From a virus (Duplodnaviria; Heunggongvirae; Uroviricota; Caudoviricetes): DNA of 64,000 nucleotides. Location: the IMG/VR virus record IMGVR_UViG_3300044445_000054; one strand, 5' to 3'. Position 1 is the stretch's first letter. Each line of letters begins with the position of its first letter. The translations under genes and the position numbers were made by a program. The notes under the pieces are model-generated. The model searched no databases, had not been told where the DNA came from, and saw nothing but the letters and a program-made list of their open reading frames with translations. Positions 36,968 to 64,000 of this stretch are shown here, one piece after another.

Positions 36968-39436
36968 CTAGCGCATCAGCGGCGTCGGCATCAAAACCTG
37001 CCGCAATGCCAGCCCGTGGACCTCGTGCCGCAGCTGACCCGTGCCATCGAAGTAGGACTGGGTGGTGTACCCCAGCTCGTCCGTCATCTGCATGAAGCGC
37101 TCGTACGTGACCCCGTATCCGCGTGCCACGTTCTTCATGAAGTCGATATACTGGTCGAACAGGGCCGTCAGATCGGCCTTGCCGCCCTCGATCGTCTCCA
37201 CCTTGTCCGAGGACTGGATGAAAGCCGCGACCGAGTTGTTCGCACGGGCCACCTGATTGAGCCGCATGATGTGGCTGGCGGGCTGGGTGTAGTCGCCCTT
37301 GGCCAGCAGCCGCTTCAGGCCCTGTGCCGCCCACGCGGCGATCGCCTCGCGTTCCTCCGCGACGAGGATTTTGTAGAAGTCGACGATCTTCTCGGCGTCC
37401 GGCACCACGCGCAGGAAGTCGAAGATCAGCCAGCGGCGCACGAACCCGCGCGACGTGTCCCGCGACCGCGGCAGATGGTTGGATCCGAACCACTGCGCCG
37501 CCTTCGGCTTGAACGGGAAGATGGCCCCGCCCTTGAACTCGGTGTTCTGTTCGGTGCCCTCGACGATTTCCTTGAAGGCCCGGCCGCCGATCGTCGCTTC
37601 CTCCGGCAACTCGCCGCAGACGTTCAGGCTCTTGCCGACCATCGGGGCCATCTGGAACCGCTCCGACCACAAGGTGGGCGGGACGGAGCAGGTGGCGGCG
37701 GGCGGCATCATGGCGCGCAGCACCTCCAGCGCCTGCGTCTTGCCGGAGCCAGCCTTGCCGTGGAGCAGGAACGCGCGCTGGAACTTGGTCGCGATGCCGA
37801 ACATCGTGGCCGCGAACGCCTCCTGCAGGGCCATCACCTTCTCGGTGTAGTCGGGATCGTCGCCCCACGACCGCTCCAGATATTCGAGCCACTTGTGGCA
37901 CTCGGCCGCCCGCTCGGGGATGTAATTGAACGGCATGGTGAAGGTCTTGCCGTACTTGGGCGAGTGGTCGTGCAGCACGAGGTTCGTGTCGAGGAACCCA
38001 TTGGCGAAATTGATCCCGTCCTCCAGCTCGTTGGCGAGCGGGGCGCGGCACAGCATCGCGATCGTCTTGGTGATCGCGACATAATCGTTGTGCCGACGCG
38101 CCAGCAGGTTGCCCTTGACGCGCTCGGCGACCTCGCGCTGGATCGCCTCGTCGTCCAGACTCTTGAAGTGCGCGCCGTTCCACTGCCAGAACAGGCCCTG
38201 ATCGTGGCGCAGCTCCCCGCCGCGGCCGATTTCCTCGATCACTTGGCGCGCGATGGCGGCGTGATCCTCGGCGATGTCGACGTCACCCTTGCGAGCGGCC
38301 TTGAAATCGGCCTTCAGATCGGCCTTCGCGTAGCCCACGTCCTTGGTGCGGGCGAAGATTTTCCCGGCCATGACCTTCATGTTGGCCTCGCTGAAGTTCT
38401 CGTCCGCCGCGAGCAGGCCGATCAGCTCGTCCACGATCTCGACCGTGCGGTCGATCGACGGCTCATGGACCATGTGCGCGTCCAGCCAGTCGGTCGCCTT
38501 CTCGATCGACCAGCGCTGGACCAAGTTCTTCTCGATCATCGCCGCGATCGCGGGGTGCGCCCGCTGGTCGTCGGTCAGCCCGTCGTCCCAGCCGTTCGGC
38601 AGGGTCGATCCGCCCTCGACGTCGCGCAGCAGGAACTCGACCAGCTTGGCCACGCCCTTCTCGGGGTCCATGTCGTCGCCCGACGACGTGGCCGTGAAGT
38701 TCTCGACCCAGTGGCGCATGTGGTTCATCGCCTCCACGAGCGTGAACCGGACGGCCTTGTCGATGCCGCGCACCACGCGCGCCAGATACCCGGCGTGCCG
38801 AACCATCTGGATGTCGCGTTCGCCCTGTGGCACCACGTCCAGCGGTGCGGAGCGGCCCGTCTGCGCGATGGTCAGGCCGGGCAGGTCGCCCAGCGCCTGA
38901 CGCAGCACCCGCTCGATGTCCGTCGGCAGGACTTGGATTTTGCCCAAGACCTCCCACAGGTTCGTGTCCGAGACATAGGGGCGCTCGGTCTTGGGGTGGA
39001 TCGAGGGCGGCAGCACCATCTGGTTGCCCTTGCCCAGAAACTCGACGATCGACTGGTTGTCGCCGTCGCGCAGCTTGAAGTTGGGCTGACCCTGCCAGCG
39101 GTAGATCAGGCCCATGCCCTTCTGACCGACGCGCTTCCACGGGGACGGCGGCAGGGCGGCGAGGATGGCGTCGATCTGCGCCTGATCCTCGGTGTCGATG
39201 TCGATCGCGCACAATCCCGAGGCCTCGCCGAACGGCAGGCCGATGTTGGAGTCGGGATAGGTGTGCAGCCACGACCGCCGGATCGCCTCCGATGGCATGA
39301 ACTCGCCGTACTGCGTCCACTCGTTCAGGATCGGGGCCTTACCCGCTCCCTTGCCGGGGCTGTTCCAGCGCTTCAAAGGCATGACGGGGATGCCCGCTGC
39401 CCAGTACAGCGGTGCGAAGTCCTTGAAAATGCTCAC
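36968..39436 (-). CDS. bifunctional primase-polymerase (PrimPol) fused to a D5/P4-type SF3 helicase
   Basis: N-terminal prim-pol block LPFGEASGLCAIDIDTED. C-terminal Walker A FLLHGKAGSGKTQA. 822 aa. Confidence 0.85.
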   Translation of the reverse strand: MSIFKDFAPLYWAAGIPVMPLKRWNSPGKGAGKAPILNEWTQYGEFMPSEAIRRSWLHTYPDSNIGLPFGEASGLCAIDIDTEDQAQIDAILAALPPSPWKRVGQKGMGLIYRWQGQPNFKLRDGDNQSIVEFLGKGNQMVLPPSIHPKTERPYVSDTNLWEVLGKIQVLPTDIERVLRQALGDLPGLTIAQTGRSAPLDVVPQGERDIQMVRHAGYLARVVRGIDKAVRFTLVEAMNHMRHWVENFTATSSGDDMDPEKGVAKLVEFLLRDVEGGSTLPNGWDDGLTDDQRAHPAIAAMIEKNLVQRWSIEKATDWLDAHMVHEPSIDRTVEIVDELIGLLAADENFSEANMKVMAGKIFARTKDVGYAKADLKADFKAARKGDVDIAEDHAAIARQVIEEIGRGGELRHDQGLFWQWNGAHFKSLDDEAIQREVAERVKGNLLARRHNDYVAITKTIAMLCRAPLANELEDGINFANGFLDTNLVLHDHSPKYGKTFTMPFNYIPERAAECHKWLEYLERSWGDDPDYTEKVMALQEAFAATMFGIATKFQRAFLLHGKAGSGKTQALEVLRAMMPPAATCSVPPTLWSERFQMAPMVGKSLNVCGELPEEATIGGRAFKEIVEGTEQNTEFKGGAIFPFKPKAAQWFGSNHLPRSRDTSRGFVRRWLIFDFLRVVPDAEKIVDFYKILVAEEREAIAAWAAQGLKRLLAKGDYTQPASHIMRLNQVARANNSVAAFIQSSDKVETIEGGKADLTALFDQYIDFMKNVARGYGVTYERFMQMTDELGYTTQSYFDGTGQLRHEVHGLALRQVLMPTPLMR

Positions 39437-39439
39437 GAA

Positions 39440-39646
39440 TTATGCTCCGAGGAGAGGGTTCTGAGGCGGAAAGTCATCGTCATCGGCCGGACCGATGCCG
39501 GATTTCACGCAGACTGCCGCGCCGACGAGCCACAGGAAGCCCAAGACGGGCTGGCCGTGGCGGGCCGCGGCGATGCCGAGGACCGCGAGGATCGCGGCGG
39601 CGATGATGTTCCCTATGCCGATCGCATAGGTGTTCGGGATTTTCAT
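39440..39646 (-). CDS. small membrane protein (68 aa)
   Basis: MKIPNTYAIGIGNIIAAAILAVLGIAAARHGQPVLGFLWLVGAAVCV. GGAGCC SD. ATGA coupling. Confidence 0.4.
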   Translation of the reverse strand: MKIPNTYAIGIGNIIAAAILAVLGIAAARHGQPVLGFLWLVGAAVCVKSGIGPADDDDFPPQNPLLGA

Positions 39647-40140
39647 CGGTAAGGCTCCAGTCTTTTCATGAATTGTTCGCGGTCGGCCTCCGACACGAGG
39701 TCGTCCAAAATCTTGATGACCTGCTCCTGAAACTCGCCCATCTTCTGCACCGTGGTGTGGCGCTCGGCGAGTTTCAGCATGCGCTCCAGCTGGTCGCCCT
39801 TGGTTTTCAGGAGGGCGAGCTTCTCGCGCACATCCATGCCATCTGTGGCGTCCAGATCGTTGAGGCTCTTGATCGTGGCCCGGATTTCGTCCAGAACCAG
39901 CTGTTCGTCCTCCGCGGACAGGCGAATGTCCTTGGTCGGGCGGCCTCGTCCGTTCTTGGACTCGACCTGCACCTCCTTTTCGACGATCTTCTCGATCACC
40001 TTGGGCGCGAGCAGCTCGGCCAGCGCCAGCTTGGTCTCGTCGTCGTACGGACAATCGGGGTTTTCGAGGGTATCGAGCTGGCTTTTCAGCCCGATCAGGC
40101 CGGTCAGGACGGCCAAGCGGAGGGGAGGGAAGTTGCTCAT
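39643..40140 (-). CDS. hypothetical protein (165 aa); first gene of the minus-strand arm
   Basis: Good composition, acidic and helical. Confidence 0.55.
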   Translation of the reverse strand: MSNFPPLRLAVLTGLIGLKSQLDTLENPDCPYDDETKLALAELLAPKVIEKIVEKEVQVESKNGRGRPTKDIRLSAEDEQLVLDEIRATIKSLNDLDATDGMDVREKLALLKTKGDQLERMLKLAERHTTVQKMGEFQEQVIKILDDLVSEADREQFMKRLEPYR

Positions 40141-40210: not shown

Positions 40211-40278
40211 CTGGTTGCCTCATAACCGCTTTATTTTGGGCTGGGTCGGAGATACCCCGCCACTCTCAAGGAGCACCT

Positions 40279-43200
40279 ATGGCCGACGTGAAGACCTCTG
40301 CGTTCATGCTTTCGAGCGCGACGATCATGATCGGCCGCGCCTTCGTGGACGACGTGTTCGCCCTGACCCCCGACAAGCACTCCGTCGGCATGGTGTCCGA
40401 AGTCAACATCACGATGGACAGCTCGCTCACCGAGCTGACGAACGGCGTTGCACAGGCGACGGTCGACTCCAAGCGCACCGGCCTGAGCACGGCAATCAGC
40501 GGCAACGTCTTCGAGATGACCGCCCAGAACTTCCTCCGCGCACAGGGCATCACGACCGCCGCGACGCCCGTCAAGCGCGGCATCCTGATGGGGTCGGCCG
40601 CTGGTGGCTCGACCTCGCTCTCGGTCGCCTCCGACCCAATCCCCGGCGAAGCCACGTCGGCGCTCACGTCTGTCGGCGACATCCCGGCAGGATCGACCAT
40701 CCTGATCCAGCGCGGCGACGGCGAGACCGATTACATCTTCCCGACCGTGTCGAGCGGCGCGGCGACGCTGAACGCCGGGCGCTACACGATCCCGATTGCG
40801 GGCGCGAGCGCGGTCCCCGCCGACATGTCGTTCCTGATCGGCGCACGGGTCTGGATCGTCCAGCCCGTCCCCGTTGGCGACATCGGCGATGACGAGTTCT
40901 TCTGCGTCAAGATCGTCGGCACCCTGTCCAACTTCGATCGGCCGGTGGTCTACATCGCGCCGAAGGTGAAGATGGTAAAGGGCTTCTCGGCCGCCTTCAA
41001 CGAGACGCAGTACAGCTCGATGCAGTGGGAGCTGAAGCCCCACATGATGAGCCGCGGCGAGATCGCCTCCGGTGGCCGCCTGTCCGAGATCGGCGCGCGT
41101 CGCACCGGCCGCCTGTTCGTGGGCGCGGGCAACGACAGCGCAACGCCGGGGGCCGTTGTCCCCGACGCCACGTTCTCGACCAACCCCAGCTTCACGCCGA
41201 CCAGCGGCAACTCGGACACGGTCTTCACCGCCAACGACGGTGTCATCGTCAACGGCGCGTTCGCCGGACGCCGCTGGCTGCTCAGCGGCACGGCGATCGG
41301 CAGCGGAGCCACGATCAAGACGAACGCCGCGGGCCAGCTGGTGCTGGAAGTCTCGGCGCTCGGCACCAATGGTCGGGTCATCCAGTACACGACCGCGCCG
41401 CTCACGGTCGCCGCGGCTGCTGCCAAGACGCTGACGTTCCGCAACCCGCCGACGGTTCAGCTGAACGAGGGCGACTCGGGCACCAAGACCTTCACCTACT
41501 ACATCGACGCGTCGGAGGCTCCGACCAGCAATCTTGTTGTTCCGCTTACGTTCCAAGCGGGCGGCACCGACGCCTCGGATTATCCGGGCGGCACGCTGCC
41601 GTCGGTGACGAGCGCCACGATCCTCGCCGGGCAGACGTCCGTGCGCGTCGACATCGTCACTTCGGGCGACACGACGGTCGAGGGCAACGAGACCTTCAAC
41701 CTCCTGCTGTCGACGCCGACCGGCTGGACCGTCGGTGCCTTCACCAGCGCCAGCGGTGTCATCCTGAACGACGACGTCGCACCCAGCCCGACCGTCTCGC
41801 TCACCGCCGTGGATCCTCAGAACGAGGGCAACAGCGGCGTCACCAACTACGTCTATACCGTGACCCGCTCGTCCACGAGCGGTGCGGTCAACGTGCCGTG
41901 GGCGTTCGCGGCAGGCACGACCAATGCGGCCGACTTCTTCGGCGGCCTGCCAACGGGCGGCACGGTGGCGCTCGCCAACGGCGTGGCATCCGGCACCTTC
42001 ACCATCATGGTGCAGGGCGATGTCGACGTCGAGTCGAATGAGACCTTCACGGTCAGCCTGAACCCGCCGTCGGGGTACATCCTCGGCGCGACGAGCAGCG
42101 CGACGGGCACGATCCTCAACGACGACACGGTCTCGGCGATCGTGCCGTTCACGTCGGCGTTCATGACCGGCGATAGCCGCATGGACAACTCGGGCGGTCG
42201 AGGGGTAACCACAACCCTTTCGCTCACCTACGGGCAGACGGGTTACTCCAGCGCCGGGTTGATCCAGCCCATGCTTGGCAACAAGTGGCTTTGGCCGGAG
42301 GGGTTCCAGCGGTCGGTCGGTGCCAGCACCACGCTGCGCATGGTCGAGGCAAATAAGACCGCCTCGTTTGCGCTGACGGGAAACACAGCGTTCGACAGCA
42401 CCGCCAACGTTTACGACAAAATCTTCAACCGTGGCGCTGACGGTCGCTACGCCCTGCGCGATCCGGGCACGGGCGCGCACGTCTTCGAGCTGAACAGCGT
42501 GAACGACGGCGGCGGCAACGGGTACTATAATCAGCCCTTTACCGCTTCCAAGTCGATCATTCATACCGCCGCAGACATCGACGCCAATCTGGCGGCGGGC
42601 AAGGTGGTGTGGCTGTTCAACGGGTGCCCGTCGTACGCATCGGCGTACACGATGGAGCTTCGCACGATCACCGGGAATAGTTGGACTGCGACCCAGACGG
42701 CTGGCTTCATCGACGGCTTCGATTACGGCGCACCCGGCGTAGTCGGTGAGTTCGGTAGCACGCCCGCTGATTACCGAGTCATGACCCGCAAGGGCAGCAA
42801 CCCCGGTCAGTACGAATACACGGTCGACGCCAACGGCAACTACGTCGCGGGCGGCACGGCACCGACGCGAGTGTGGGTCACGCACACGGGCGGCGGCACC
42901 CTAAACGCGATCACGCCGACTTCCTCGCACATCAAGACCATGTGGGCGTGGTACAACAGCAACGCCGCAAACTTCGTGTATAACGGCAATGACTACGGCA
43001 TTCCGGGGTGTCGCTACAACCGCGATCCGAAGCGGCTCATCATCGTCGATACGATGAAGTGGCTGCGCGCTGACCTAAATGACGGCGACGTCATGGCGGC
43101 CAAGCCCGGCACGATGGACATTCTGCGTTTGCACCACAACATTCTCGGTGCATTCTGGATCAGTAAGGCCGTCGAAGAGGCGATGGCCACGGCGGGTTAT

Positions 43201-44232
43201 GCCGCACAGCCGTCGCTCGACAAGCGCCCGATGCGCAACAACTGGCCTGCGGCGATGGCAGCGGGAACTGCAAATCCGACGCTGACTTGCACTCTTCCTC
43301 CGTCCATGCGGATGGCCGTTCCGACTCAGCTGCGTCTCGGAACCGTCGTTGTTGGTCTGGTGGACACGGCAACTGGCAATATCACAACGGCCCCTGGCGC
43401 GACTTATGCAATTACGGCGGGCAATATCAACTTCGCAACGGGTGCGCTTACCGTGACGTTTGCGGGAACGCCGCCTAACAGCACTCGACTGTATTGCGAG
43501 CAGGATTTCGGCGACGGCGCGGGCGTTGGGGGAAATCTGATCCTTAACGGCATGCTTGACATGACGCCCTTGGACGGAAGCAACATCAACTTCGCTCGCA
43601 CGGGCACCTCAACGATAACGGGCATCGCGAACTCGGAAGTCCCCGTGGGATACACGCTCCAGTCGTCGGGCAATGGTATGAACACGGCGATTGCAAACGG
43701 CACCGCATCGCTGACGGTGAGTTCCGACACCACAAACGGGTATCCGATGTTCCGGCTGTCTGCGAAGGGTATCCACAGCTCAGCTATTGCCTTCACGCTG
43801 CAGCAGGCCAACGGGCCGTACGCGGCTCTGGTCCAACCCACCGACAAGATTATGGCAGGGGCAACTCTGGTTCTTGAAGCTGGCTCGGACGGCTGGCTGT
43901 ACGGCTTCGGTGGTTGCAATGTGTCGGGTACGCTGTCGATCCCCACGACCGATAAGACCGGCCCCAACGGTACGTTCGCGGTTACGCAGGTTTCCTCGAA
44001 TGGATCGCGACTGGGTCAGAACGCGCAGAGCCTGTATGTGGACAGCGCGCTGCTTGCCGCCAACGGGGGGCAGCCGTTCAAGAACCACTACCTCGGGCCT
44101 CAAGTCCAACCTGACGTGCAGCCGACTGGCACCGGAGGGTCGTTCTCCTTTTCGGTCGGAGCCAACGTCCCTTTCAGTTTCAAGATTGGCATTGGCCAGT
44201 ATCACTCGCGCGTTCGCAACGACGTAACCTAA
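40279..44232 (+). CDS. 1317-aa virion protein: N-terminal major-tail-protein-like domain, three Calx-beta-like repeats, large C-terminal domain
   Basis: Residues 1-~290 are highly similar (I estimate roughly 80%, not computed) to the 283-aa protein at 54975..55823. Repeats of VDIVTSGDTTVEGNETFNLLLS / VQGDVDVESNETFTVSLN. AAGGAG SD. Confidence 0.8.
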   Translation: MADVKTSAFMLSSATIMIGRAFVDDVFALTPDKHSVGMVSEVNITMDSSLTELTNGVAQATVDSKRTGLSTAISGNVFEMTAQNFLRAQGITTAATPVKRGILMGSAAGGSTSLSVASDPIPGEATSALTSVGDIPAGSTILIQRGDGETDYIFPTVSSGAATLNAGRYTIPIAGASAVPADMSFLIGARVWIVQPVPVGDIGDDEFFCVKIVGTLSNFDRPVVYIAPKVKMVKGFSAAFNETQYSSMQWELKPHMMSRGEIASGGRLSEIGARRTGRLFVGAGNDSATPGAVVPDATFSTNPSFTPTSGNSDTVFTANDGVIVNGAFAGRRWLLSGTAIGSGATIKTNAAGQLVLEVSALGTNGRVIQYTTAPLTVAAAAAKTLTFRNPPTVQLNEGDSGTKTFTYYIDASEAPTSNLVVPLTFQAGGTDASDYPGGTLPSVTSATILAGQTSVRVDIVTSGDTTVEGNETFNLLLSTPTGWTVGAFTSASGVILNDDVAPSPTVSLTAVDPQNEGNSGVTNYVYTVTRSSTSGAVNVPWAFAAGTTNAADFFGGLPTGGTVALANGVASGTFTIMVQGDVDVESNETFTVSLNPPSGYILGATSSATGTILNDDTVSAIVPFTSAFMTGDSRMDNSGGRGVTTTLSLTYGQTGYSSAGLIQPMLGNKWLWPEGFQRSVGASTTLRMVEANKTASFALTGNTAFDSTANVYDKIFNRGADGRYALRDPGTGAHVFELNSVNDGGGNGYYNQPFTASKSIIHTAADIDANLAAGKVVWLFNGCPSYASAYTMELRTITGNSWTATQTAGFIDGFDYGAPGVVGEFGSTPADYRVMTRKGSNPGQYEYTVDANGNYVAGGTAPTRVWVTHTGGGTLNAITPTSSHIKTMWAWYNSNAANFVYNGNDYGIPGCRYNRDPKRLIIVDTMKWLRADLNDGDVMAAKPGTMDILRLHHNILGAFWISKAVEEAMATAGYAAQPSLDKRPMRNNWPAAMAAGTANPTLTCTLPPSMRMAVPTQLRLGTVVVGLVDTATGNITTAPGATYAITAGNINFATGALTVTFAGTPPNSTRLYCEQDFGDGAGVGGNLILNGMLDMTPLDGSNINFARTGTSTITGIANSEVPVGYTLQSSGNGMNTAIANGTASLTVSSDTTNGYPMFRLSAKGIHSSAIAFTLQQANGPYAALVQPTDKIMAGATLVLEAGSDGWLYGFGGCNVSGTLSIPTTDKTGPNGTFAVTQVSSNGSRLGQNAQSLYVDSALLAANGGQPFKNHYLGPQVQPDVQPTGTGGSFSFSVGANVPFSFKIGIGQYHSRVRNDVT

Positions 44233-44244: not shown

Positions 44245-45219
44245 ATGATGAAGTTTTTGATTGCTGCTGCAGCGATGCTTTGGGCGTCGCCCGTAGCCGC
44301 TGCTGATCTGACGGCGACCCCGTCGACCTACAAGACCGTCGCCGCCGCGGCCAAGTGCGGCGACACGGTGACGCTGGCGGCCGGTGACTACGGCGCGGTG
44401 CAGGTCACGCGCTACAACACGCCGGGTGCGATCGCGTGCCCCGCCGACAACCGCATCGAAATCCGCGCCGAGGATGCGCGAATGGACTCGCTGACCTTTC
44501 GCGCCGTGCAGGGCGTCAACTGGTTCGGCGGCTTCATCAGCGCACCGCTGGGCGTCGCCACCCCCGGCGTGACGATGGACAGCTCGCGCTTCGTCCGCTT
44601 CGCAGGCGGACTGGTCACCGGCCACAAGGTCGGCGTCACCGCGGTGCGCGGCTCCGACTATGAGATCGTCGGCAACCGCTTCCAGGGTCTGCGCAGCGAC
44701 GGTATCAATGTAACCTCCTCGCAGCGCGTGCTGATCGAGAGCAATCAGGTCGTGATGACGGTGCCGATCAAGGCGACGTACACGCCCGAGGGCAAATTGC
44801 TGGTCGACGGCGACCATTCGGACGGTGTCCAAGCGTGGAATACGGCGGGCCTGCCGCGCGTGACCGATGTGACGATCCGCGGCAATTACTTCCGCGGCAT
44901 GATGCAGGGTATCGCGGTGTTCGACGCGGGCAAGGGCGGCGTCGACCGCTTCATCGTCGAGAACAACACGATCGATGGCATCGACTTCTGGCACGGCATC
45001 ACGCTGACCGAGGCGCGCGACAGCGTGATCCGCGATAACATCGTGCTGACGCGCAAGGGTGCCAAGGCGTGGAACTTCCCGTTCCAGCCCATCAAGACGT
45101 GGGTGTCGATCCCCGGAGCGATCAACGTGGTCGCCTGCGGCAACACCGTCCCGGCGATGCCCGGCGGCGTGGGCACCAAGCCCTGTTCGGCGGCCACTGC
45201 CTTGCGGTCTGCCAAGTAA
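44245..45219 (+). CDS. secreted right-handed beta-helix (pectate-lyase-fold) protein
   Basis: Signal peptide MMKFLIAAAAMLWASPVAAA. Repeated xNxxIxxN beta-helix rungs (IESNQV, IRGNYF, VENNTIDG, IRDNIV). Confidence 0.65.
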   Translation: MMKFLIAAAAMLWASPVAAADLTATPSTYKTVAAAAKCGDTVTLAAGDYGAVQVTRYNTPGAIACPADNRIEIRAEDARMDSLTFRAVQGVNWFGGFISAPLGVATPGVTMDSSRFVRFAGGLVTGHKVGVTAVRGSDYEIVGNRFQGLRSDGINVTSSQRVLIESNQVVMTVPIKATYTPEGKLLVDGDHSDGVQAWNTAGLPRVTDVTIRGNYFRGMMQGIAVFDAGKGGVDRFIVENNTIDGIDFWHGITLTEARDSVIRDNIVLTRKGAKAWNFPFQPIKTWVSIPGAINVVACGNTVPAMPGGVGTKPCSAATALRSAK

Positions 45220-45245
45220 CGGTTGCCCCACAACCATTTGATCTT

Positions 45246-45273: not shown

Positions 45274-47031
45274 ATGTTCGACGAACTATATCAAGCAGTG
45301 AAGATGCGCTTCGGCGACGTGAACGCGTCGCAGTCGATGGGCAACTGGATCACGTCGAACACCACCATCAAGAAGCGCCCTTTCTCGTACGAGGGCTACG
45401 GCTTCCAGAAAGCCATCGCCGACGACATGCACCGCAACGTGTCGGTGAAGAAGTGCTCGCAGATCGGCCTCACCGAGGTCCAAATCCGCAAGTTCTTGGC
45501 GATCCTCACCCGATCGACAGCGATCGCGGGCATCTTCTCGATGCCCAACGAGAAGATGTTCACCAAGACCTATAACGGTCGCATCAAGCCGATCCTCGAA
45601 GCGGATGCCGTCTTCAACCCGCCGTCGGCCATGAAGCCGACGCGGTCGAAGGATCAAATCCAAATCCGGGACAGCTTCGGCTATATCACCGCCTGTACCG
45701 AGGGCGACGCCACCTCGCTGTCCGCCGACTTCCTGTTCCACGACGAGCTGGACCTCAGCCCGCAGGAGATCATCGCACTGTACCAGAGCCGCCTCCAAGG
45801 CTCGGACATGCAGATCACCCAGTCCTTCTCGACCCCGACCTTCTCCGGCTACGGCATCGACAAGAACTATCAGCTGACCGACCAGCGCGAGTACAAGGCG
45901 AAGTGCGGTGGCTGCGGCCGGTGGCACATCCCGCTGTTCAAGCCCGAGTTCATCTACCTCAAGAAGTTCCCGTTCGACGTCGAGCACTTCACGGAGCTGA
46001 CGGCGCAGCAGATCGCGCTGCTCGATCTGGAGGACTGCCACGTCAAGTGCCCCGACTGCTCGACGCGGTTCGATCTGGGCAACGACGACCTGCGCGAGTG
46101 GGTGGCGCTGCGCCCGTCGGTGCTCAACTTCCGCGGCTATCAGGTCCGCCCCTTCTCGACGCCGCGCATCAAGCCGTCCTACATCTTCGGGCAGCTGGCG
46201 CAGTATCAGGAGAAGTCGTTCACCCGAGGCTTCTACAACACCGTGCTCGGCGAGGAATACACCGCCGCCGACGCGCGCCTGCAAGAGGCCGACATCAAGG
46301 CCTGCATGGCGAAGGGCACCGCCGCGGTGCCGGACATTTCGGCGGACACGCCGTGCTACATGGGCATCGACGTCGGCCTGACCTGCTACATCACCGTCAG
46401 CTATGACGATGACGACGGCAACCCGCACTTCGTCTATTGGGACACGGTGCCCGCCTCGTCGCTCCAGCGCCGGGTCGAGGAGTTGTGCCGGGTCTACAAC
46501 ATCGTGCAGGGCGCGATCGACCGCTTCCCGTACACGACCGAGGCGGATGCGCTGCGCGACACGACGCAGGGCCTCATCATCCCGGTCCAGTACCGCGGTC
46601 TTCAGATGCTGTCGCCGGTGATGGAAGCCGACACCAAGGTCTTGAACCATTATTCCGCAAACAACACGCTGGCGCTCGATCGCGTGCAGGCGCTGGTCAG
46701 CCACCGGGTCATGACGATCTCCGGCTATCAGGGCCAGCGCGAGACGGTCATCAAGCACCTGATGGACATGGTCCGCGACGACAAGCCGTCGGACAGCGAC
46801 AACGTGCTGGGCGAGTGGAAGAAGACCAGTGGCAACGACCACTTCATGCACTCGGCCGCCTTCAACCTGCTCGCGCGCCGGATCGGCGACCACATGTTCG
46901 CGACCCAGATTTCAACGGTGGCCACTACTTCCTCTTTTCTCGGGGCGAGCTTTGCGAGTACGCAAGGAATGCTCAACTTCAACGGGACCGGCAAAATGAC
47001 CGGCCTCAACCGCATTTCGAGGCTCGGATAA
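45274..47031 (+). CDS. terL: terminase large subunit
   Basis: 585 aa. Deviant Walker A VKKCSQIGLTE (T4 gp17-type SRQLGKT variant). Walker B LFHDELD. C-terminal nuclease-like Asp-rich blocks (GIDVGLTCY). Confidence 0.7.
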   Translation: MFDELYQAVKMRFGDVNASQSMGNWITSNTTIKKRPFSYEGYGFQKAIADDMHRNVSVKKCSQIGLTEVQIRKFLAILTRSTAIAGIFSMPNEKMFTKTYNGRIKPILEADAVFNPPSAMKPTRSKDQIQIRDSFGYITACTEGDATSLSADFLFHDELDLSPQEIIALYQSRLQGSDMQITQSFSTPTFSGYGIDKNYQLTDQREYKAKCGGCGRWHIPLFKPEFIYLKKFPFDVEHFTELTAQQIALLDLEDCHVKCPDCSTRFDLGNDDLREWVALRPSVLNFRGYQVRPFSTPRIKPSYIFGQLAQYQEKSFTRGFYNTVLGEEYTAADARLQEADIKACMAKGTAAVPDISADTPCYMGIDVGLTCYITVSYDDDDGNPHFVYWDTVPASSLQRRVEELCRVYNIVQGAIDRFPYTTEADALRDTTQGLIIPVQYRGLQMLSPVMEADTKVLNHYSANNTLALDRVQALVSHRVMTISGYQGQRETVIKHLMDMVRDDKPSDSDNVLGEWKKTSGNDHFMHSAAFNLLARRIGDHMFATQISTVATTSSFLGASFASTQGMLNFNGTGKMTGLNRISRLG

Positions 47032-48617: not shown

Positions 48618-48674
48618 AAGTGGTTGAGCCAGAACCTGTTGATCTGACCGACCGCAGCGGCATAGGGCGAGAAT

Positions 48675-51544: not shown

Positions 51545-51580
51545 TGGGGCGGTCCTTCGGGGCCGCCCTTTTCTTTTGCA
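51545..51580 (+). terminator. rho-independent terminator after the capsid gene
   Basis: GGGGCGGTCCTTCGGGGCCGCCC stem-loop followed by TTTTCTTTT. Confidence 0.7.
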
Positions 51581-54974: not shown

Positions 54975-55823
54975 ATGGCCGACGTTCAGAAGTCCGCATT
55001 TGCCCTGTCCTCGGCCACGATCATGATCGGTCGCGCCTTCGTGGACGATGTTTTTGGTCTTTCGCCCGACAAGCATTCGGTCGGCATGGTGTCGGAGGTG
55101 AACATCGCCCTCGACAGCTCGCTGACGGAATTGATGAACGGCGTCGCGCAGGCCACTGTCGACTCGAAGCGCAGCGGTATCTCCGCCAGCATCACCGGCA
55201 ACGTCTACGAAATGACCGCGCAGAACTTCCTGCGAGCCAGCGCGCTGTCGACGACCGCCGTGCCGGTGAAGCGTGGCCGTCTGTCCACCGCCATTGCCAG
55301 CGGCGGTGTGTCGCTGTCGATCGTGTCCGACCCGATCCCCGGTGAGGCCACCTCGGCGATCACGGCGCTGACCGACATTCCGGCCGGGTCGACCATCCTG
55401 ATCCAGCGCGGCGACGGCGAGACGGACTACGTCTTCCCGACCGTCACGTCGGCAGCGGCGACGGGCACCGGCCCGTTCGTCGTGCCGATCGCGGGCACCT
55501 ATGCCATCCCCGCCGACCTGTCGTTCCCGGTCGGCGCGCGTGTCTGGGTCGTGCACCCGGTTCCGGTCGGCGACATCGACGCGGACGAGCTGTTCTGCGT
55601 GAAGATCGCGGGCACGCTGTCCAACTTCGATCGCCCCGTCGTGTACGTCGCGCCGAAGGTGAAGATGGTGAAGGGCTTCGGCATCTCGTTCAACGAGACG
55701 CAGTACAGCTCGATGCCGTGGGAAATGAAGCCGCTGCTCATGAGCCGCGGCGAGATCGCCTCGGCGGTCCGGCTGGCCGAAGTCGGCTCGCGGCGCTCCG
55801 GCCGACTGTACGTCGGCGGTTAA
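54975..55823 (+). CDS. major tail (tube) protein
   Basis: 283 aa. AAGGAG SD. A strong terminator directly downstream. Paralogous to the N-terminus of 40279..44232. Confidence 0.55.
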   Translation: MADVQKSAFALSSATIMIGRAFVDDVFGLSPDKHSVGMVSEVNIALDSSLTELMNGVAQATVDSKRSGISASITGNVYEMTAQNFLRASALSTTAVPVKRGRLSTAIASGGVSLSIVSDPIPGEATSAITALTDIPAGSTILIQRGDGETDYVFPTVTSAAATGTGPFVVPIAGTYAIPADLSFPVGARVWVVHPVPVGDIDADELFCVKIAGTLSNFDRPVVYVAPKVKMVKGFGISFNETQYSSMPWEMKPLLMSRGEIASAVRLAEVGSRRSGRLYVGG

Positions 55824-55849
55824 GGGGTTCTCCCTTGACGAATGCACGA

Positions 55850-55880
55850 GAGGCGGTCCAATGGGCCGCCTCTTTTGTTT
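55850..55880 (+). terminator. rho-independent terminator after the major tail gene
   Basis: GAGGCGG-tccaatggg-CCGCCTC followed by TTTTGTTT. Approximate coordinates. Confidence 0.6.
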
Positions 55881-55889
55881 GGAGCCATC

Positions 55890-57673: not shown

Positions 57674-57682
57674 GGACTGAAC

Positions 57683-58960: not shown

Positions 58961-58992
58961 GCCATCGCCCGCGGCACACGCGGGCGATGGCC
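58961..58992 (+). other. perfect 13-bp hairpin GCCATCGCCCGCG-gcacac-CGCGGGCGATGGC enclosing the tape-measure start codon
   Basis: The right arm contains the ATG at about 58987. No SD outside the stem. Confidence 0.5.
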
Positions 58993-61900
58993 AATAACGT
59001 CTATACTCAAGAAGTTTTCTTCGATGCCGACGGCAGGCCAGTTCTTGACGCCCTCAAGAGCGTCGAGGGCTTCTTTCTTAACATCCAGAAAATCGTCTCT
59101 GGCATCGGCATTAAGTCGAAGGAAGACGCGCAGGCATGGGGCCTCCAGCTCTCCCAGAACCTCAGTGCGCTCAAGCAGGCACAGAGCGACATGCGTGCCA
59201 TCCAGCAGAACCGCGAGTCCTATCAAAATAAGAAGGGCTTCGGTCAGCTGGAAGCGGCCGAGAAGGAGTCCAACCGCAAGCGGCTGATCGAGTACAAGGT
59301 GCTGACCGCCGACAAGGCGCGGGAGGCAAAGGAAGAGGCCAGCGTCGAGAAGGCCTTGGCTCGCGAGGTTGCAGGCTACGAGGCCGAGCTGCTGCGCGCA
59401 CAGGTCGCCCAGCAGAAGGCCGCCGACCGCGCCGCCATCGCGTCGGCCAAGGAAGTCGCCGCCGCCCGCCGCGAGGCGGCGCAGGCCGCCGTCACCGCCA
59501 AGGCGCGCGGGATCACGAACCGTGACGACATCACCGCCGCCAAGGCTGCGAGCGACGCCCGGCTGGCGCAGCTGCGGCGCGAACGTGAGGCGATGGCCTC
59601 CAACGACGTGGCCGCCGCCCGTACCATCGCCGACCGGATCAATCTGGAGAAGGTGCTGGGACGCGAGCTGGACGCCACGCTCGCCAAGCTGAACCGGCAG
59701 ACGGTGGCCGAAGAGAAGGCGCGTGACGCCGCCAACCGGCGGCTGACGGGCGTCGCCTACAAGGATCAGGCGCTGCTCGCGCCGTCTGCCGTGCAGAAGA
59801 CGGCGGCGAACCTCGGCGCGGTTGGGGCGCGCGACTTCTATAAGAACGAGCAGGCGACGGCTCAGTCGATCCTGCGCGCCCGCATCGCCGACACTCGGTC
59901 GACGCTGGAGTCGCGCGTCGAGGCACAGCGCAATCTGGAGATCGCCAACCGGCGTGTGATCGAGGCCCAGAAGCTGGTCAACGAGGAGAACAAGGTCGCC
60001 GCTGCGCAGGAGCGCCAGCTGCGCGCCGCCGAGCGCCTCACCCTGCAGGAGCAGCGCACGACCGAGCAGGCGGCGCGTCGTGCATTGCAGGAGCAGCGCA
60101 ACGCCGAGTTCGAAGCGCGTCGTTCGCCGATGGGCCGGATCAAGACGGCGGCCACCAACCTCGGGCTGTACGGCGGCGTCGCGGGCGTCGGGTATGCCGC
60201 CTTTGGCGCAATCCAAGGCGGGCTGAGCGAAGTCATCCAGATGGAAGACGAGCTGGCCAAGCTGCAAGCGATCGCCAACGCCACGGAGCCGCAGCTTCAG
60301 AAGATGAAGTCGGCGATCTACAGCATCGGCGAGGCGTCGCGCTTCTCCAACGTCGATCTCGCCAAGGTGGCGCAGACGCTGGCACAGGCCGGTGTGACCG
60401 CGGGCGACATGCAGAAGGTGCTGTCCAGCGTCACCACGCTGGCGACCGCGTCCGGCTCCACGCCTGACGAGGCCGTGAACCTCGTCACGTCGGCGCTCGG
60501 CGCGTTCCAGCTCCAGTCGAGCGAGGCAGCGCGCATCGCCGACCTGATGACGTCGGCCCTGAACCGCACCAAGCTCACCGTGCAGCAGACCGGCCAGGCG
60601 ATCCAGTACGTCGGTGCCACCGCGTTCGAGCAGAACATCAGCCTCGAACAGCTGCTCGCCACCGTCGGTGCCATCGCGCAGGCAGGTGTTCGGTCCGGCT
60701 CGACGATCGGTACGGGCTTCCGCCAGTTCCTCGTCGATCTCCAGACGCCCTCAACCAAGTTGCAGGCTCAGCTCGACGCCGTCGGGCTGTCAGCGGCGCA
60801 GGTCAACGTCGCCGTCCGCGGCCTGCCCGCGGTCCTGAAGTCGCTGAACGAGGCGGGCTTCGGGGCGGCACAGGCGTATGGCGGGCTGGAGACGCGCGCG
60901 GCGGCCTTCTACCTTGTCGCCAAGAACAACACCGACATCATGGATCAGCTCCAGATGTCGTTCGCCCAGCAGGGCGCGGCGGCGATCGCCAACGAGCGGG
61001 CGATGAACTCGCTCACGGCGCAGTGGCAGCGCTTCAAGAACATCCTGTCGAGCGGCTTTGCCGACAGCCTCGAAGTGCCGATGCGGTTCTTGCAGGACTT
61101 GCTCAAGCGCCTGTCGGATCGACAGCTGGAGCTGGACGCGGCGGCCGAGAAGCTGTCGCGCGCCGACAAGGGCGGGCTGGAGGGCTACCAGCAGGAGTAC
61201 GGCACGGTCAGCGGCGCGGTCGGCTATTCGCTGAACACCGCCGGTCGCGATGCGATGCAGCAGGCGGCCGACGACATCAAGTTCATCCTGAACGGCTTCG
61301 GGCTGACCCAGCTTGCGGGCGTCGAAGGCATCGGCGACCAGTGGATCGCCTATACGCAGAAGATCGCGGGCGCGAAGGATGCGACGGACGACTTCGCTAC
61401 GTCGGTGGCGATGAACAGCGAGAACGTCGAGGCGCAGTCCAACAAGATCAGCGAGCTGGACAAGGAAATGGGTCGCCTGCTGACGCAGCAGGATAGCCTC
61501 AAGGATGGCAGCACGCAGGTCTCGGTCGAGACCGTGAACCTGACCTCGCGCTTCCAAGGGCTGGCCAAGTTCCTCACCAACGCCAAGGACAAGTACGGCG
61601 ACCTGATGCAGGCGATGCAGCGGTATCGCCAAGAGGCATTGCAGACGCAGAACGCCTATCTCAACAGCCAGATTTCGACGTTCGGCGAGCAGGCCAGCAT
61701 GGCGCAGGGCCGCGCCACGACGCTCGCCAATGAGGCGCTGAGCAGCGGACGCTACAACAACGACCCGCGCCTCATCCAGGCTCTCAAGCAGCCGCGACTT
61801 CTCGGCAACGCCAGCTACATCGCCGATGCGGGTGAGACGCGCAACGACCCGGTGCTGCGCGAGCTGAGCAAGAACGTCGGCACGCTCGCAATGGCGACGG

Positions 61901-64000
61901 CCGAGCAGAACATCGCGCGGCAGCAGCGGGACAGCGTTCGCACGCAGGCGACCACCGGCGGCCAGTCGCTGGAGCAGCGCACGCTGGCGAGCGAGAGCGC
62001 GCTGACCAAGTTCACCAGCCTGTCGCAGGACGAGCAGAGGGCACAGGCTCCCGCGCTGCGGGCACAGGTTCAGGCGATCGCTTCCGAGACCGCAGCGCGG
62101 CTCGCCAACCCGAAGACCGCCGACGCCGCCCGTGCGACGCTCAGGACGTGGGAGGTGCGTGCCAACGCCGTGCTCAAGGGCGTGGACGCTGCGCTGGCCC
62201 CGACGAAGGGTGAGATCAAAGCCGCCGCGGCTGCAGAGCGGGAGCGCAAGGCGTCCGAGCGGACGGCCAGCCGTAACGAGACGCTGGTCACGCAGGCCGA
62301 CATCGACAAGTTCGGGCAAGACCTCGGGCTGACGCTCGGCAGCGGCGTCCGCACCAAGGCGGAGCAGAACAGCCTGCACGCACGCGGTGTCACGCGCGCG
62401 ACGGGTGATACCTCGTCGCACTCGAACGGCGGTGTTGCCCGCGACTTCGGCGTGCGTGGGCTAGACGACGGAGCGGCCGAGCGGATGGCCGCCACGCTCC
62501 GTGCCCAGTACCGCGCCGCGGGGATCGAGGCGCGGGTCAAGTATGAGCGCGGCGGGCCGAACGATGGCACCGGCCGCCACATCCACGTCGACGTTCGCAA
62601 GGGCGCGAAGCGTCGCAGCGATCGTAGCGAGGAGTTGCAGGACAACAACGAGCTGGACATCGCTCGGTCGCAGTCGTCGCTCGACGAAGAAGACGTGAAG
62701 ATCAAGCTCAAGGACGTTGCGCAGGCGAGCCAAGATACGTTCGACGCGGCGACCAAGGCGGCCCGCGCCGCGCTCGACAAGCTCAACGGCGGCCTCGAAA
62801 GCCTCGCGCTGCAAGAACTGGCGACCAGCGGTGTTGCGCCCGGCACGCCCGAGTTCTCGGCCAAGCTGTTGCAGGTCCGTCAGTCGATCGCCCAGAACAA
62901 GGCCGAGTTCGAGCAGAAGATTGCCGACGCGATCATCAAGAGCACCGAAGCGCAGATCGAGTCGGCGCAGACGGCGTTCGACCAGCAGACCTCCGGCGCG
63001 GCGGGCACGCTGGCATATTCGCAGGCGAGCGCGGGTGGGCTGGAAGCCTACTCGCTGCGCAACCGTGTGCCCGACTACGTCAAGCAGCTGGCGAACGACC
63101 GGATTGGTGCGGGTCAAGAGAACCTCGCGCGCGTTCAGTACGCCGCCCTGCCTTCGCAGATTGCCGCGCAGCAGGCCGCCATCGCCGCGGCGATCGCTAC
63201 CTCCGACAAGGAGGGCGTGACCGAGCAGACGCAGGCCAAGATCGCGGGCATGAACGTCGAGCTGGAGAAGCTGATCGCGAACCGCGAGGCGCTGGCGGCG
63301 CAGCTCGGCGCGGGCGGACTGGTGCCGACCACCTTGGGTGCAGGACTTGAGCAGGCCATTCAGGCGTTCCGTCAGGCGAACGTGCTGGGCAACACCTTCA
63401 GCCAAGACCTCATCATGAACATGGGCGGGGCGCTGGAACAGGTCAACGGCGGTCTGACGAGCATGTTCACGTCGATCATCGAAGGCTCGTCGTCGGCGCT
63501 CGGTGCCTTCGCCAGCTTCTCGAAGGGCATCATGGCCTACATGGTGCAGATCGCGGCGAAGGCCGTGGCGACCAAGCTGATCGGCCTGCTGCTCAACTTC
63601 GCGAGCATCGGCGTCGGCGGGACAGCGTCGGGCGGCGGCAACGCCGCGGCCTCCGGCAGCGCAGGTAGTGTGTCGCTCGGCGGGCGCAGCGTGGTCCCAT
63701 TCGTCAGCAACTTCAAGGGCGGCCCAATCACCGGCTACGAGCGCGGCGGCGAGGTCATGAATGGCTCGCGCAGCCGCGACAGCGTCAACTCCAAGCTGGC
63801 GCGCGGCGAGTTCGTCATGCAGAACTCGGCCGTCGACAGCGTTGGCACCGAGTTCATGGCACAGCTCAACCAGCACGGCGCGCGTGCGCTGGATGGATTG
63901 CAGGCGATGCCGAAGCTCGATATGCAGACGAAGACCGAGACCAACGTCTGGGTGGTGCCGGGTGATCGGCCGCAGACGATGGGTCCGAACGACGTCAAGC
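58987..64000 (+). CDS. tail tape-measure protein, partial (runs off the window end), with embedded M15/VanY-like peptidase motif
   Basis: Open frame, translated by eye over 5 kb: MANNVYTQEVFFDADGRPV..., Ala/Gln/Glu-rich coiled coil. TP901-type core ...MKSAIYSIGEASRFSNVDLAKVAQTLAQAGVTAGDMQKVLSSVTTLATASGSTPDEAVNLVTSALGAFQL... Around 62.4-62.6 kb: SSHSNGGVARD...GRHIHVDV, an H-x-D ... HxH zinc-peptidase pattern. No stop up to 64000, so not in the ORF track. Confidence 0.6.
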   Translation, partial: MANNVYTQEVFFDADGRPVLDALKSVEGFFLNIQKIVSGIGIKSKEDAQAWGLQLSQNLSALKQAQSDMRAIQQNRESYQNKKGFGQLEAAEKESNRKRLIEYKVLTADKAREAKEEASVEKALAREVAGYEAELLRAQVAQQKAADRAAIASAKEVAAARREAAQAAVTAKARGITNRDDITAAKAASDARLAQLRREREAMASNDVAAARTIADRINLEKVLGRELDATLAKLNRQTVAEEKARDAANRRLTGVAYKDQALLAPSAVQKTAANLGAVGARDFYKNEQATAQSILRARIADTRSTLESRVEAQRNLEIANRRVIEAQKLVNEENKVAAAQERQLRAAERLTLQEQRTTEQAARRALQEQRNAEFEARRSPMGRIKTAATNLGLYGGVAGVGYAAFGAIQGGLSEVIQMEDELAKLQAIANATEPQLQKMKSAIYSIGEASRFSNVDLAKVAQTLAQAGVTAGDMQKVLSSVTTLATASGSTPDEAVNLVTSALGAFQLQSSEAARIADLMTSALNRTKLTVQQTGQAIQYVGATAFEQNISLEQLLATVGAIAQAGVRSGSTIGTGFRQFLVDLQTPSTKLQAQLDAVGLSAAQVNVAVRGLPAVLKSLNEAGFGAAQAYGGLETRAAAFYLVAKNNTDIMDQLQMSFAQQGAAAIANERAMNSLTAQWQRFKNILSSGFADSLEVPMRFLQDLLKRLSDRQLELDAAAEKLSRADKGGLEGYQQEYGTVSGAVGYSLNTAGRDAMQQAADDIKFILNGFGLTQLAGVEGIGDQWIAYTQKIAGAKDATDDFATSVAMNSENVEAQSNKISELDKEMGRLLTQQDSLKDGSTQVSVETVNLTSRFQGLAKFLTNAKDKYGDLMQAMQRYRQEALQTQNAYLNSQISTFGEQASMAQGRATTLANEALSSGRYNNDPRLIQALKQPRLLGNASYIADAGETRNDPVLRELSKNVGTLAMATAEQNIARQQRDSVRTQATTGGQSLEQRTLASESALTKFTSLSQDEQRAQAPALRAQVQAIASETAARLANPKTADAARATLRTWEVRANAVLKGVDAALAPTKGEIKAAAAAERERKASERTASRNETLVTQADIDKFGQDLGLTLGSGVRTKAEQNSLHARGVTRATGDTSSHSNGGVARDFGVRGLDDGAAERMAATLRAQYRAAGIEARVKYERGGPNDGTGRHIHVDVRKGAKRRSDRSEELQDNNELDIARSQSSLDEEDVKIKLKDVAQASQDTFDAATKAARAALDKLNGGLESLALQELATSGVAPGTPEFSAKLLQVRQSIAQNKAEFEQKIADAIIKSTEAQIESAQTAFDQQTSGAAGTLAYSQASAGGLEAYSLRNRVPDYVKQLANDRIGAGQENLARVQYAALPSQIAAQQAAIAAAIATSDKEGVTEQTQAKIAGMNVELEKLIANREALAAQLGAGGLVPTTLGAGLEQAIQAFRQANVLGNTFSQDLIMNMGGALEQVNGGLTSMFTSIIEGSSSALGAFASFSKGIMAYMVQIAAKAVATKLIGLLLNFASIGVGGTASGGGNAAASGSAGSVSLGGRSVVPFVSNFKGGPITGYERGGEVMNGSRSRDSVNSKLARGEFVMQNSAVDSVGTEFMAQLNQHGARALDGLQAMPKLDMQTKTETNVWVVPGDRPQTMGPNDVK

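What the first reader, a model, noticed from the sequence alone, without database searches (positions are those of the whole stretch)
40279..44232. Giant 1317-aa virion protein whose first ~290 residues duplicate the major tail protein encoded 15 kb away
The N-terminus of 40279..44232 is MADVKTSAFMLSSATIMIGRAFVDDVFALTPDKHSVGMVSEVN... The 283-aa protein at 54975..55823 begins MADVQKSAFALSSATIMIGRAFVDDVFGLSPDKHSVGMVSEVN... Both continue in parallel to ...RGEIAS..RL.E.G.RR.GRL.VG. I estimate roughly 80% identity (not computed). The long copy then adds three Calx-beta-like Ig repeats (DTTVEGNETF) and a ~600-aa C-terminal domain. Instead of the usual frameshift-generated long tail-tube variant, this phage appears to encode a separate gene copy that could co-polymerise into the tube and display Ig and enzymatic domains.
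Basis: seen in the sequence. Interest (0 to 1): 0.7.

Follow-up and report, generated by a model that had tools for sequence, protein, structure and literature searches.

The report
Tail-tube paralogue fused to esterase fibre
A Sphingomonas-type long-tailed phage carries, besides its normal 282-residue tail-tube gene, a second diverged copy fused to about 1,000 residues of spacer domains and a sugar-esterase fibre module, probably a way to plant enzymatic fibres on the tail tube from a separate gene rather than by ribosomal frameshifting.

Summary

The two copies are old sister paralogues (dS ~0.8, dN/dS ~0.23). The long copy keeps 30 of 30 invariant family positions.

The gene, together with a signal-peptide beta-helix gene, is a ~5 kb insertion just upstream of the large terminase gene (TerL). 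The insertion is absent from the closest relatives and is flanked by two copies of a conserved motif that lies upstream of TerL.

All 31 related loci have a single ~280-aa tube gene, and the fusion was seen only on this contig.

Best reading: a minor tube subunit that displays esterase fibres. Incorporation into virions is inferred, not shown. This is a new variant of tail-tube decoration.

The parts
40213..40234 (+). Copy 1 of the conserved upstream motif GGTTGCC-N4-AACC-N2-TT-N-AT, 45 nt before the ATG of the 1317-aa gene
   Evidence: The motif lies upstream of TerL in four close relatives. It has 3 matches in the window against 0.02 expected by chance.
40279..44232 (+). Gene for the 1317-aa fusion protein: tail-tube paralogue + linker + 2 Calx-beta + SGNH esterase + beta-sandwich domains. 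RBS AAGGAG.
   Evidence: GC3 0.83. The exact protein is on record as P0001, on one JGI contig of 131,277 bp.
40279..41124 (+). Residues 1-282: complete tail tube protein domain, paralogue of 54975-55823
   Evidence: 75% identity. phrog_28493 E 2e-28. Sister to the short copy in a neighbour-joining tree of 121 sequences. 30/30 invariant and 74/76 >=95%-conserved family positions are kept.
41125..41454 (+). Residues 283-392: disordered linker (283-346, pLDDT <50) and a low-confidence small beta region
   Evidence: No Pfam or PHROG hit. No relative of this stretch in the metagenome scan.
41455..42135 (+). Residues 393-619: two Calx-beta (Ig-like) domains
42136..43224 (+). Residues 620-982: SGNH/GDSL-type esterase domain with an inserted beta domain; candidate catalytic residues Ser633, Asn742/Asp743, His952
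43225..44229 (+). Residues 983-1317: beta-sandwich domains, the last one carbohydrate-binding-module-like; lowest GC3 of the gene (0.72)
44245..45219 (+). 324-aa right-handed beta-helix protein with an N-terminal Sec-type signal peptide; second gene of the inserted cassette
   Evidence: PF13229 E 2.7e-10 and PF05048. N-terminus MMKFLIAAAAMLWASPVAAA.
45221..45242 (+). Copy 2 of the conserved upstream motif, 32 nt before TerL
54975..55823 (+). Resident 282-aa major tail tube protein gene
55848..55874 (+). Strong terminator-like hairpin (12 pairs plus a T-run) right after the 282-aa gene
   Evidence: A similar hairpin follows the major capsid gene at 51546-51569.
58987..64000 (+). Tape measure protein gene, at least 1671 codons, running off the window
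   Evidence: PF10145 E 2.5e-31.

Best explanation
The 1317-aa ORF is an intact gene for a minor, specialised tail-tube subunit.

**Shown**
- Residues 1-282 are a full tail tube protein domain. It arose by duplication of the phage's own tube gene and has stayed under purifying selection.
- Residues 283-1317 are a flexible linker, two Calx-beta spacer domains and a ~700-aa SGNH-esterase plus beta-sandwich module. In other phages this module forms the distal part of tail-fibre-position proteins.
- The gene is part of a ~5 kb cassette inserted at the head of the structural operon, behind its own copy of the motif that precedes TerL.

**Inferred**
- The tube domain enters hexameric tube rings together with the abundant 282-aa subunit, in sub-stoichiometric amounts set by separate expression rather than by frameshifting.
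- Its C-terminus points outward, as the extra C-terminal domain does in the structurally related YSD1 tube protein. The tail would therefore carry long esterase fibres.
- These fibres bind and de-O-acylate an acetylated surface polysaccharide of the host (probably a sphingomonad), helping reversible adsorption and passage through capsule or exopolysaccharide.
For: - **Paralogy.** 75% identity over 282 aa, E 5e-149.
- **Selection.** Between the copies dS is 0.78, dN 0.18 and dN/dS 0.23. Branch dN is ~0.13 for the long copy and ~0.05 for the short one, with similar dS.
- **Sister relationship.** The long copy's N-terminus is closest to the short copy of the same contig: 74.8% against at most 70.2% to 119 orthologues. 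The neighbour-joining tree places them as sisters.
- **Tube residues kept.** 30/30 invariant, 74/76 (>=95% conserved) and 90/97 (>=90% conserved) family positions are kept; most of the seven changes are conservative. The hinge loop 51-68 is 89% identical.
- **Fibre-cassette behaviour.** P0201 (36-40% identity, full coverage) is the last tail gene before the lysis genes of an unrelated siphophage. 29 representatives carry the module on varied N-termini, and P0203 shares the Calx-beta and esterase parts on a non-tube anchor.
- **Insertion.** Relatives with 87-92% identical TerL have ~125 bp where this phage has 5 kb. Other relatives carry tail-fibre-like genes at the same site.
- **Regulation.** The upstream motif is duplicated before the 1317-aa gene and before TerL.
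- **Mosaic origin.** GC3 is ~0.9 for residues 1-619 and 0.72 for residues 901-1317.
- **Literature.** The YSD1 tube, structurally similar to Mystique's, has an extra C-terminal domain (PMC12013898). Tube-displayed adhesin and CBM extensions are known (PMC6669499). The esterase activity of a tail spike is essential for phage G7C infection (PMC10743462).
Against: - No protein-level or structural evidence shows that the long protein is in virions.
- The fusion occurs on a single metagenomic contig. P0001 is a singleton, and all 31 related loci have one ~280-aa tube gene.
- The long copy's tube domain evolves about 2.5 times faster at non-synonymous sites, so altered assembly behaviour is possible.
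- A 1035-aa appendage on a tube subunit could hinder ring packing.
- Many esterase fibres are trimers, which does not map simply onto one chain per tube subunit.
- The esterase domain reaches no Pfam threshold.
- The substrate and the host are inferred only.
Confidence: 0.6

Rival explanations
1. The long paralogue does not mix along the tube. It forms one dedicated ring at a fixed place, for example next to the distal tail complex or under the neck. That would give a collar of up to six esterase fibres, functionally a side-fibre or whisker anchor built from a tube-fold domain.
For: - Non-synonymous change on the long branch is faster, which fits new specific contacts.
- The gene lies away from the tail module.
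Against: - All seven changes at positions conserved in >=90% of orthologues are single-residue substitutions, most of them conservative, and the hinge loop that mediates ring-to-ring contacts is 89% identical. Nothing therefore marks a new interface.
- No partner gene for positioning was identified.
Confidence: 0.22
2. The protein is not a virion component. It is a soluble or cell-associated esterase, made with the exported beta-helix enzyme as an accessory (moron-like) cassette. The tube domain would serve another purpose, such as oligomerisation or interference with tail assembly of competing related phages.
For: - The neighbouring gene encodes a signal-peptide protein, which is unlikely to be a virion protein.
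- The cassette is dispensable in close relatives.
- The fusion is a singleton.
Against: - The long protein has no signal peptide; its N-terminus is that of the tube protein.
- The full tube domain, including the hinge loop, is kept under purifying selection.
- A dominant-negative tube subunit would poison the phage's own 75%-identical tube.
- Homologues of the C-terminal module sit in tail-fibre positions.
- The gene lies behind the motif shared with TerL.
Confidence: 0.1
3. The fusion is an artefact (chimeric assembly or a sequencing frame error) or a decaying, non-functional remnant.
For: - It comes from a single metagenomic contig.
- The contig could not be retrieved to inspect it or its coverage.
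- The 131 kb contig length exceeds the ~82 kb typical of relatives.
Against: - Similarity starts exactly at the ATG and ends exactly at the last residues of the tube protein, inside one uninterrupted 3954-nt ORF with host-like codon usage.
- 24% nucleotide divergence with dN/dS 0.23 excludes a collapsed or duplicated assembly of one gene.
- The longest exact shared run is 35 nt.
- Gene order around both copies is coherent, with one set of head genes between them.
- The catalytic residues are intact.
Confidence: 0.04

Closest known systems
Tail-tube decoration by C-terminal extension of the major tail protein: lambda gpV Ig domain, SPP1 gp17.1* (frameshift), lactococcal 936-group TpeX (frameshift, CBM) (PMC6669499)
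   Same: A tube subunit carries outward-facing Ig-like or carbohydrate-binding domains. A short and a long form coexist. The proposed role is ancillary host binding through avidity.
   Different: - Here the long form comes from a separate, diverged paralogous gene 14.7 kb away, not from the same gene by frameshifting.
- The extension is 1035 aa, against ~100-250 aa in the known cases.
- It ends in an enzyme (SGNH esterase) of the kind found in tail fibres.
Tail tube proteins of Acinetobacter phage Mystique (PDB 9n71) and Salmonella phage YSD1 (PDB 6xgr) (PMC12013898)
   Same: - Mystique is also a sequence relative (24% identity).
- YSD1 has an additional C-terminal domain.
   Different: Those phages have one tube gene. 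No fibre or enzyme is fused to it.
Esterase tail fibres and tailspikes, e.g. phage G7C gp63.1 (PDB 4qnl; PMC10743462) and SFP21A Gp09 (PDB 9lna)
   Different: - Those proteins attach through N-terminal adaptor or baseplate-binding domains and are trimers.
- Here the anchor is a tube subunit.
- Sequence identity is only ~9-10%.
T6SS Hcp-ET proteins: tube protein Hcp with C-terminal toxin extensions (PMC6730261)
   Same: A tube-fold subunit encoded by an extra gene copy carries a C-terminal enzymatic domain. Hcp proteins are fold neighbours of the 282-aa protein.
   Different: It belongs to a contractile secretion system, not a phage tail. The cargo is a toxin delivered into prey, not a surface-polysaccharide esterase. 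There is no sequence relationship.
Actinobacteriophage clusters EL, DJ and others, annotated with two major tail protein genes (PMC11080557, PMC10652937)
   Same: Two tube-type genes in one siphophage genome.
   Different: The two cited genes (gp17 and gp19 of phage Damascus) lie close together in the genome. No fibre or esterase fusion is described, and the phages are unrelated.

Membership tests
Siphophage tail tube protein, Mystique/Seuss type (phrog_28493) | Sequence match to the family profile | tested here: met
   Residues 3-258 of the long protein match at E 2.1e-28, and the short protein matches at E 2.8e-28. 218 homologues were found.
Siphophage tail tube protein, Mystique/Seuss type (phrog_28493) | Tube fold (beta-sandwich core plus external domain) matching a solved tail tube | tested here: met
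   [not shown]
Siphophage tail tube protein, Mystique/Seuss type (phrog_28493) | Gene located in the tail module after the head-tail connector genes | tested here: not met
   This holds for the 282-aa gene. The 1317-aa gene lies upstream of TerL in an inserted cassette.
Siphophage tail tube protein, Mystique/Seuss type (phrog_28493) | Assembles into hexameric rings around the tape measure protein | not testable with these tools
   Only indirect evidence is available: conserved family positions and hinge loop.
Frameshift-generated major tail protein extension (SPP1 gp17.1*, TpeX) | Long form made from the same gene as the short form by programmed frameshift | tested here: not met
   There are two separate genes with 24% nucleotide divergence. 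The short gene ends in a stop codon followed by a 12-bp-stem terminator.
Frameshift-generated major tail protein extension (SPP1 gp17.1*, TpeX) | Extension made of Ig-like or carbohydrate-binding domains | tested here: met
   Two Calx-beta domains and CBM-like beta-sandwiches.
SGNH/GDSL hydrolases | SGNH (flavodoxin-like alpha/beta/alpha) fold | tested here: met
   [not shown]
SGNH/GDSL hydrolases | Conserved blocks: GDS Ser (I), Asn (III), His (V) | tested here: met
   GDS at 631-633, VND at 741-743 and His952 are invariant in 22 homologues. The Asp partner of His is not in the canonical DxxH spacing.
SGNH/GDSL hydrolases | Significant match to a Pfam GDSL model | tested here: not met
   The window protein has no hit. 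Homologue P0202 scores E 0.087 to PF13472.
SGNH/GDSL hydrolases | Esterase activity | not testable with these tools
   Needs an enzyme assay.
Calx-beta domain (PF03160) | Pfam score above the gathering threshold | tested here: met
   33.8 bits against a cut-off of 27 on residues 388-619, with two stretches. On the whole protein the score is 26.8 bits, just under the cut-off.
Phage esterase tail fibre (G7C gp63.1-like) | N-terminal adaptor- or baseplate-binding domain and a trimeric shaft | tested here: not met
   The N-terminus is a tube domain. The oligomeric state was not tested.

The most novel reading that the evidence does not exclude
The tail tube of this siphophage is a heteropolymer. 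A second, separately expressed tube paralogue inserts into the rings and carries ~1000-aa esterase fibres along the tail. This would be a phage counterpart of T6SS Hcp-ET proteins and a third genetic route to tube decoration, alongside in-gene domains and frameshifting. It would show that a complete receptor-binding or enzymatic fibre cassette can be re-anchored from the baseplate to the tube by fusion to a duplicated tube gene.
Probability: 0.5. Interest if true: 0.75.

Novelty: new variant of a known kind. Interest (0 to 1): 0.6.

Why it matters
Tail-tube decorations are known as small adhesin domains made from the tube gene itself. A separate tube paralogue carrying a whole enzymatic fibre would have three consequences:

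1. Siphophage tubes could be mixed polymers whose stoichiometry is set at the level of gene expression.
2. Fibre modules could be moved between the baseplate and the tube by simple gene fusion.
3. It would offer a natural template for engineering phages that display enzymes or binders along the tail.

It would also give a testable case of subfunctionalisation after duplication of a core virion gene.

Tried and rejected
- **The 912-aa '+' ORF (36914-39652) as tape measure protein.** Rejected. Its translation and GC3 pattern show it is the antisense of a minus-strand Prim-Pol primase gene, 36968-39436.
- **'The tail module lacks a tape measure protein.'** Rejected. The tape measure gene starts at ~58987 and runs off the window. 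The order tube, gpL-like, NlpC/P60, JAB, gpI-like, 415-aa, tape measure is conserved in relatives.
- **Full-length homologue search.** Swamped by Calx-beta proteins and uninformative for the fusion.
- **Pfam, PHROG and PDB-sequence searches of the C-terminal 698 aa.** No significant hit.
- **Metagenome scan with residues 283-500.** Found only Calx-beta matches, none with a tube domain.
- **Retrieving the source contig.** Failed: there are no records for P0001, P0081 or the 415-aa protein. The remainder of the 131 kb contig was therefore not seen.
- **Horizontal origin of the tube domain from another phage.** Rejected in favour of within-lineage duplication, because the long copy is clearly closest to the co-resident gene.
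- **Recent gene conversion.** Not supported. The longest exact shared run is 35 nt.
Full report
**1. Observation**

The '+' strand ORFs 40279-44232 (1317 aa) and 54975-55823 (282 aa) are real. BLASTP aligns residues 1-282 of the long protein with the whole short protein: 75% identity, 86% positives, one gap, E 5e-149.

At DNA level the identity is 75.5%, and 60% at third codon positions. It begins at the ATG and ends at the last codons of the short gene; the flanking DNA is unrelated. Both genes have an AAGGAG ribosome-binding site.

Identity is 75%, not ~80%. There are two Calx-beta units, not three. The C-terminal module is about 700 aa.

**2. Gene calling and context**

The window is 62-67% G+C, so many long antisense ORFs are spurious. 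Codon-position GC shows minus-strand genes from 355 to 40140:
- helicase, class II ribonucleotide reductase and ligase;
- a Prim-Pol primase at 36968-39436.

A '+' structural operon starts at 40279. Its genes, in order:
- the 1317-aa gene;
- a 324-aa beta-helix protein;
- TerL (45274-47031), portal and major capsid protein (50298-51524);
- connector-region genes;
- the 282-aa gene;
- gpL-like, NlpC/P60, JAB-like and gpI-like genes, and a 415-aa protein;
- a tape measure protein that starts at ~58987 and runs off the window.

Relatives occur as ~80-85 kb viral contigs and in Sphingomonas and Sphingopyxis genomes. The host is therefore probably a sphingomonad; this is an inference.

**3. The 282-aa protein is the tail tube protein**

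- Its distant homologues in Caulobacter phage Seuss, Achromobacter phage JWF and Acinetobacter phages EAb13 and Mystique lie immediately upstream of the tape-measure chaperones and the tape measure protein.
- Strong terminator hairpins follow only the capsid gene and this gene, as expected for very abundant products.

**4. The two copies are old sister paralogues, both constrained**

- Pairwise dS is 0.78, dN 0.18 and dN/dS 0.23.
- Among 120 family members, the long copy's N-terminus is closest to the co-resident short gene (74.8% against at most 70.2%). A neighbour-joining tree places them as sisters.
- Three-point estimates with eight outgroups give branch dN ~0.13 for the long copy and ~0.05 for the short copy, with comparable dS. 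The long copy evolves faster but remains under purifying selection.
- The long copy keeps 30/30 invariant and 74/76 >=95%-conserved family positions. The seven changes at >=90%-conserved positions are single-residue substitutions, most of them conservative. The low-confidence hinge loop (51-68) is 89% identical; in solved tubes this loop links successive rings (PMC11445458).
- The longest exact shared run is 35 nt, so there is no recent gene conversion or assembly duplication.

**5. The extension**

An AlphaFold model of residues 283-1317 (22-sequence alignment) gives the following layout:
- a disordered linker (283-346);
- a poorly defined small beta region;
- two Calx-beta domains (about 393-504 and 505-619);
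- a confidently folded region from ~626 to 1317 (pLDDT ~90).

Ser633 (in GDS), Asn742/Asp743 and His952 are invariant across the 22 homologues. No Pfam model reaches significance, so this is a divergent SGNH lineage.

**6. The ~700-aa module behaves as a tail-fibre cassette**

The word-index search found two homologues. One of them, P0201, is the last tail gene before the lysis genes of an unrelated temperate siphophage.

The exhaustive search found 29 representatives. Their N-termini vary:
- most are 690-750 aa with short N-termini;
- some carry Ig-like repeats;
- P0203 (1318 aa, 52% identical) shares the Calx-beta plus esterase part but has a non-tube N-terminal anchor.

GC3 falls from ~0.9 (residues 1-619) to 0.72 (residues 901-1317), which suggests the distal part was acquired more recently.

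**7. The gene is part of an insertion**

Relatives with 87-92% identical TerL have only ~125 bp between the 165-aa minus-strand gene and TerL. Here 5 kb holding the 1317-aa and 324-aa genes lie there. Other relatives carry tail-fibre-like genes at this site.

A conserved motif lies upstream of TerL in relatives: GGTTGCC-N4-AACC-N2-TT-N-AT. In this window it occurs both before the 1317-aa gene and before TerL, and a third, weaker copy lies before the 391-aa head gene. That is 3 matches against 0.02 expected by chance. This argues for co-regulation with the structural genes.

**8. Rarity**

All 29 IMG/VR loci and both GTDB loci have one tube ORF of ~280-340 codons stop-to-stop. The 120 best family hits are 267-324 aa. 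No Calx-beta locus in the metagenome scan had a tube domain. P0001 and P0081 are singletons on one 131,277-bp JGI contig, which could not be retrieved.

**9. Interpretation**

*Shown.* This is a complete, selected tube paralogue fused in frame to a spacer and a fibre-type esterase module. It is encoded by a separate gene at the head of the structural operon.

*Inferred.* The tube domain co-assembles with the 282-aa subunit and displays the esterase outward.
- Supporting analogies are the tube extensions of lambda, SPP1 and the lactococcal TpeX proteins (PMC6669499), the extra C-terminal domain of the structurally related YSD1 tube (PMC12013898), and the essential esterase spike of phage G7C (PMC10743462).
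- A dedicated-ring arrangement is a serious alternative.
- A non-virion role or an artefact is unlikely, but neither is excluded without proteomics and read-level checks.

**10. Novelty**

Tube decoration is known, and so are esterase fibres. Achieving decoration through a separately encoded, diverged tube paralogue that carries a full ~1000-aa fibre module did not appear in the papers I searched. The nearest genetic parallels are actinophage genomes with two major tail protein genes (PMC11080557) and T6SS Hcp-ET proteins (PMC6730261).

I rate it a new variant of a known kind, of moderate to high interest, limited by being a single metagenomic instance.

Noticed in passing
window 44245-45219 (+); L044 8120-9169: The gene next to the fusion encodes a 324-aa right-handed beta-helix protein with a clear Sec signal peptide (MMKFLIAAAAMLWASPVAAA). 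It looks like an exported polysaccharide-active enzyme rather than a virion spike. A related contig has an unrelated signal-peptide protein at the same position before TerL, whose sequence looks beta-helix-like by eye only (no family search was run). There is no significant sequence similarity between the two.
   Followed up: partly
window 40213-40234, 45221-45242, 48622-48643 (+): A conserved element, GGTTGCC-N4-AACC-N2-TT-N-AT, contains a short inverted repeat and sits 30-45 nt upstream of three structural-operon genes. It is conserved upstream of TerL in relatives. It may be a late promoter or regulator site. There are 3 matches against 0.02 expected.
   Followed up: partly
window 55842-58930 (+) and 58987-64000: The tail gene order is unusual: tube, gpL-like, NlpC/P60, JAB-like, gpI-like, a 415-aa protein of phrog_704 ('DNA repair exonuclease'), and only then the tape measure protein. 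This order is conserved in close relatives. In more distant relatives the tape measure gene lies upstream of the tube gene. The role of the exonuclease-like protein inside a tail module is unexplained.
   Followed up: partly
window ~52676-53485, 53974-54378, 54261-54671, ~54664-54879 (-): Small minus-strand ORFs with a coding-like GC3 pattern interrupt the '+' structural operon between the connector genes and the tube gene. None has a family hit.
   Followed up: partly
L044 1-9400 (IMGVR_UViG_3300034069_001058): In this close relative, what look by eye like bacterial genes (a dihydrolipoyl dehydrogenase-like ORF and an Mfd-like ORF, judged from their translations with no family search) lie directly upstream of the TerL region. 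This suggests an integrated prophage or a chimeric contig. P0186 and L048 also place family members in Sphingopyxis genomes.
   Followed up: no
window 19710-23228 (-): Two adjacent minus-strand genes have weak hits: Multi_ubiq (PF14452, 407 aa) and HATPase_c_3 (PF13589, 739 aa). These are reminiscent of defence or counter-defence gene pairs. Both hits are below or near the Pfam cut-offs.
   Followed up: no
window 58987-64000 (+), around residues 1090-1150 of the partial tape measure protein: Read by eye, the tape measure protein contains a stretch resembling a peptidase M15 / VanY-type cell-wall hydrolase motif (…SHSNGGVARDF… …GRHIHVD…). Pfam reported only PF10145.
   Followed up: no
L039 7721-8812; L040 3215-4300: Relatives carry a 361-363-aa protein (MKF.GPID..KNAI…) and one or two small ORFs at the same pre-TerL site. 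The protein looks tail-fibre-like by eye. This site appears to be a hot spot for accessory host-recognition genes.
   Followed up: partly
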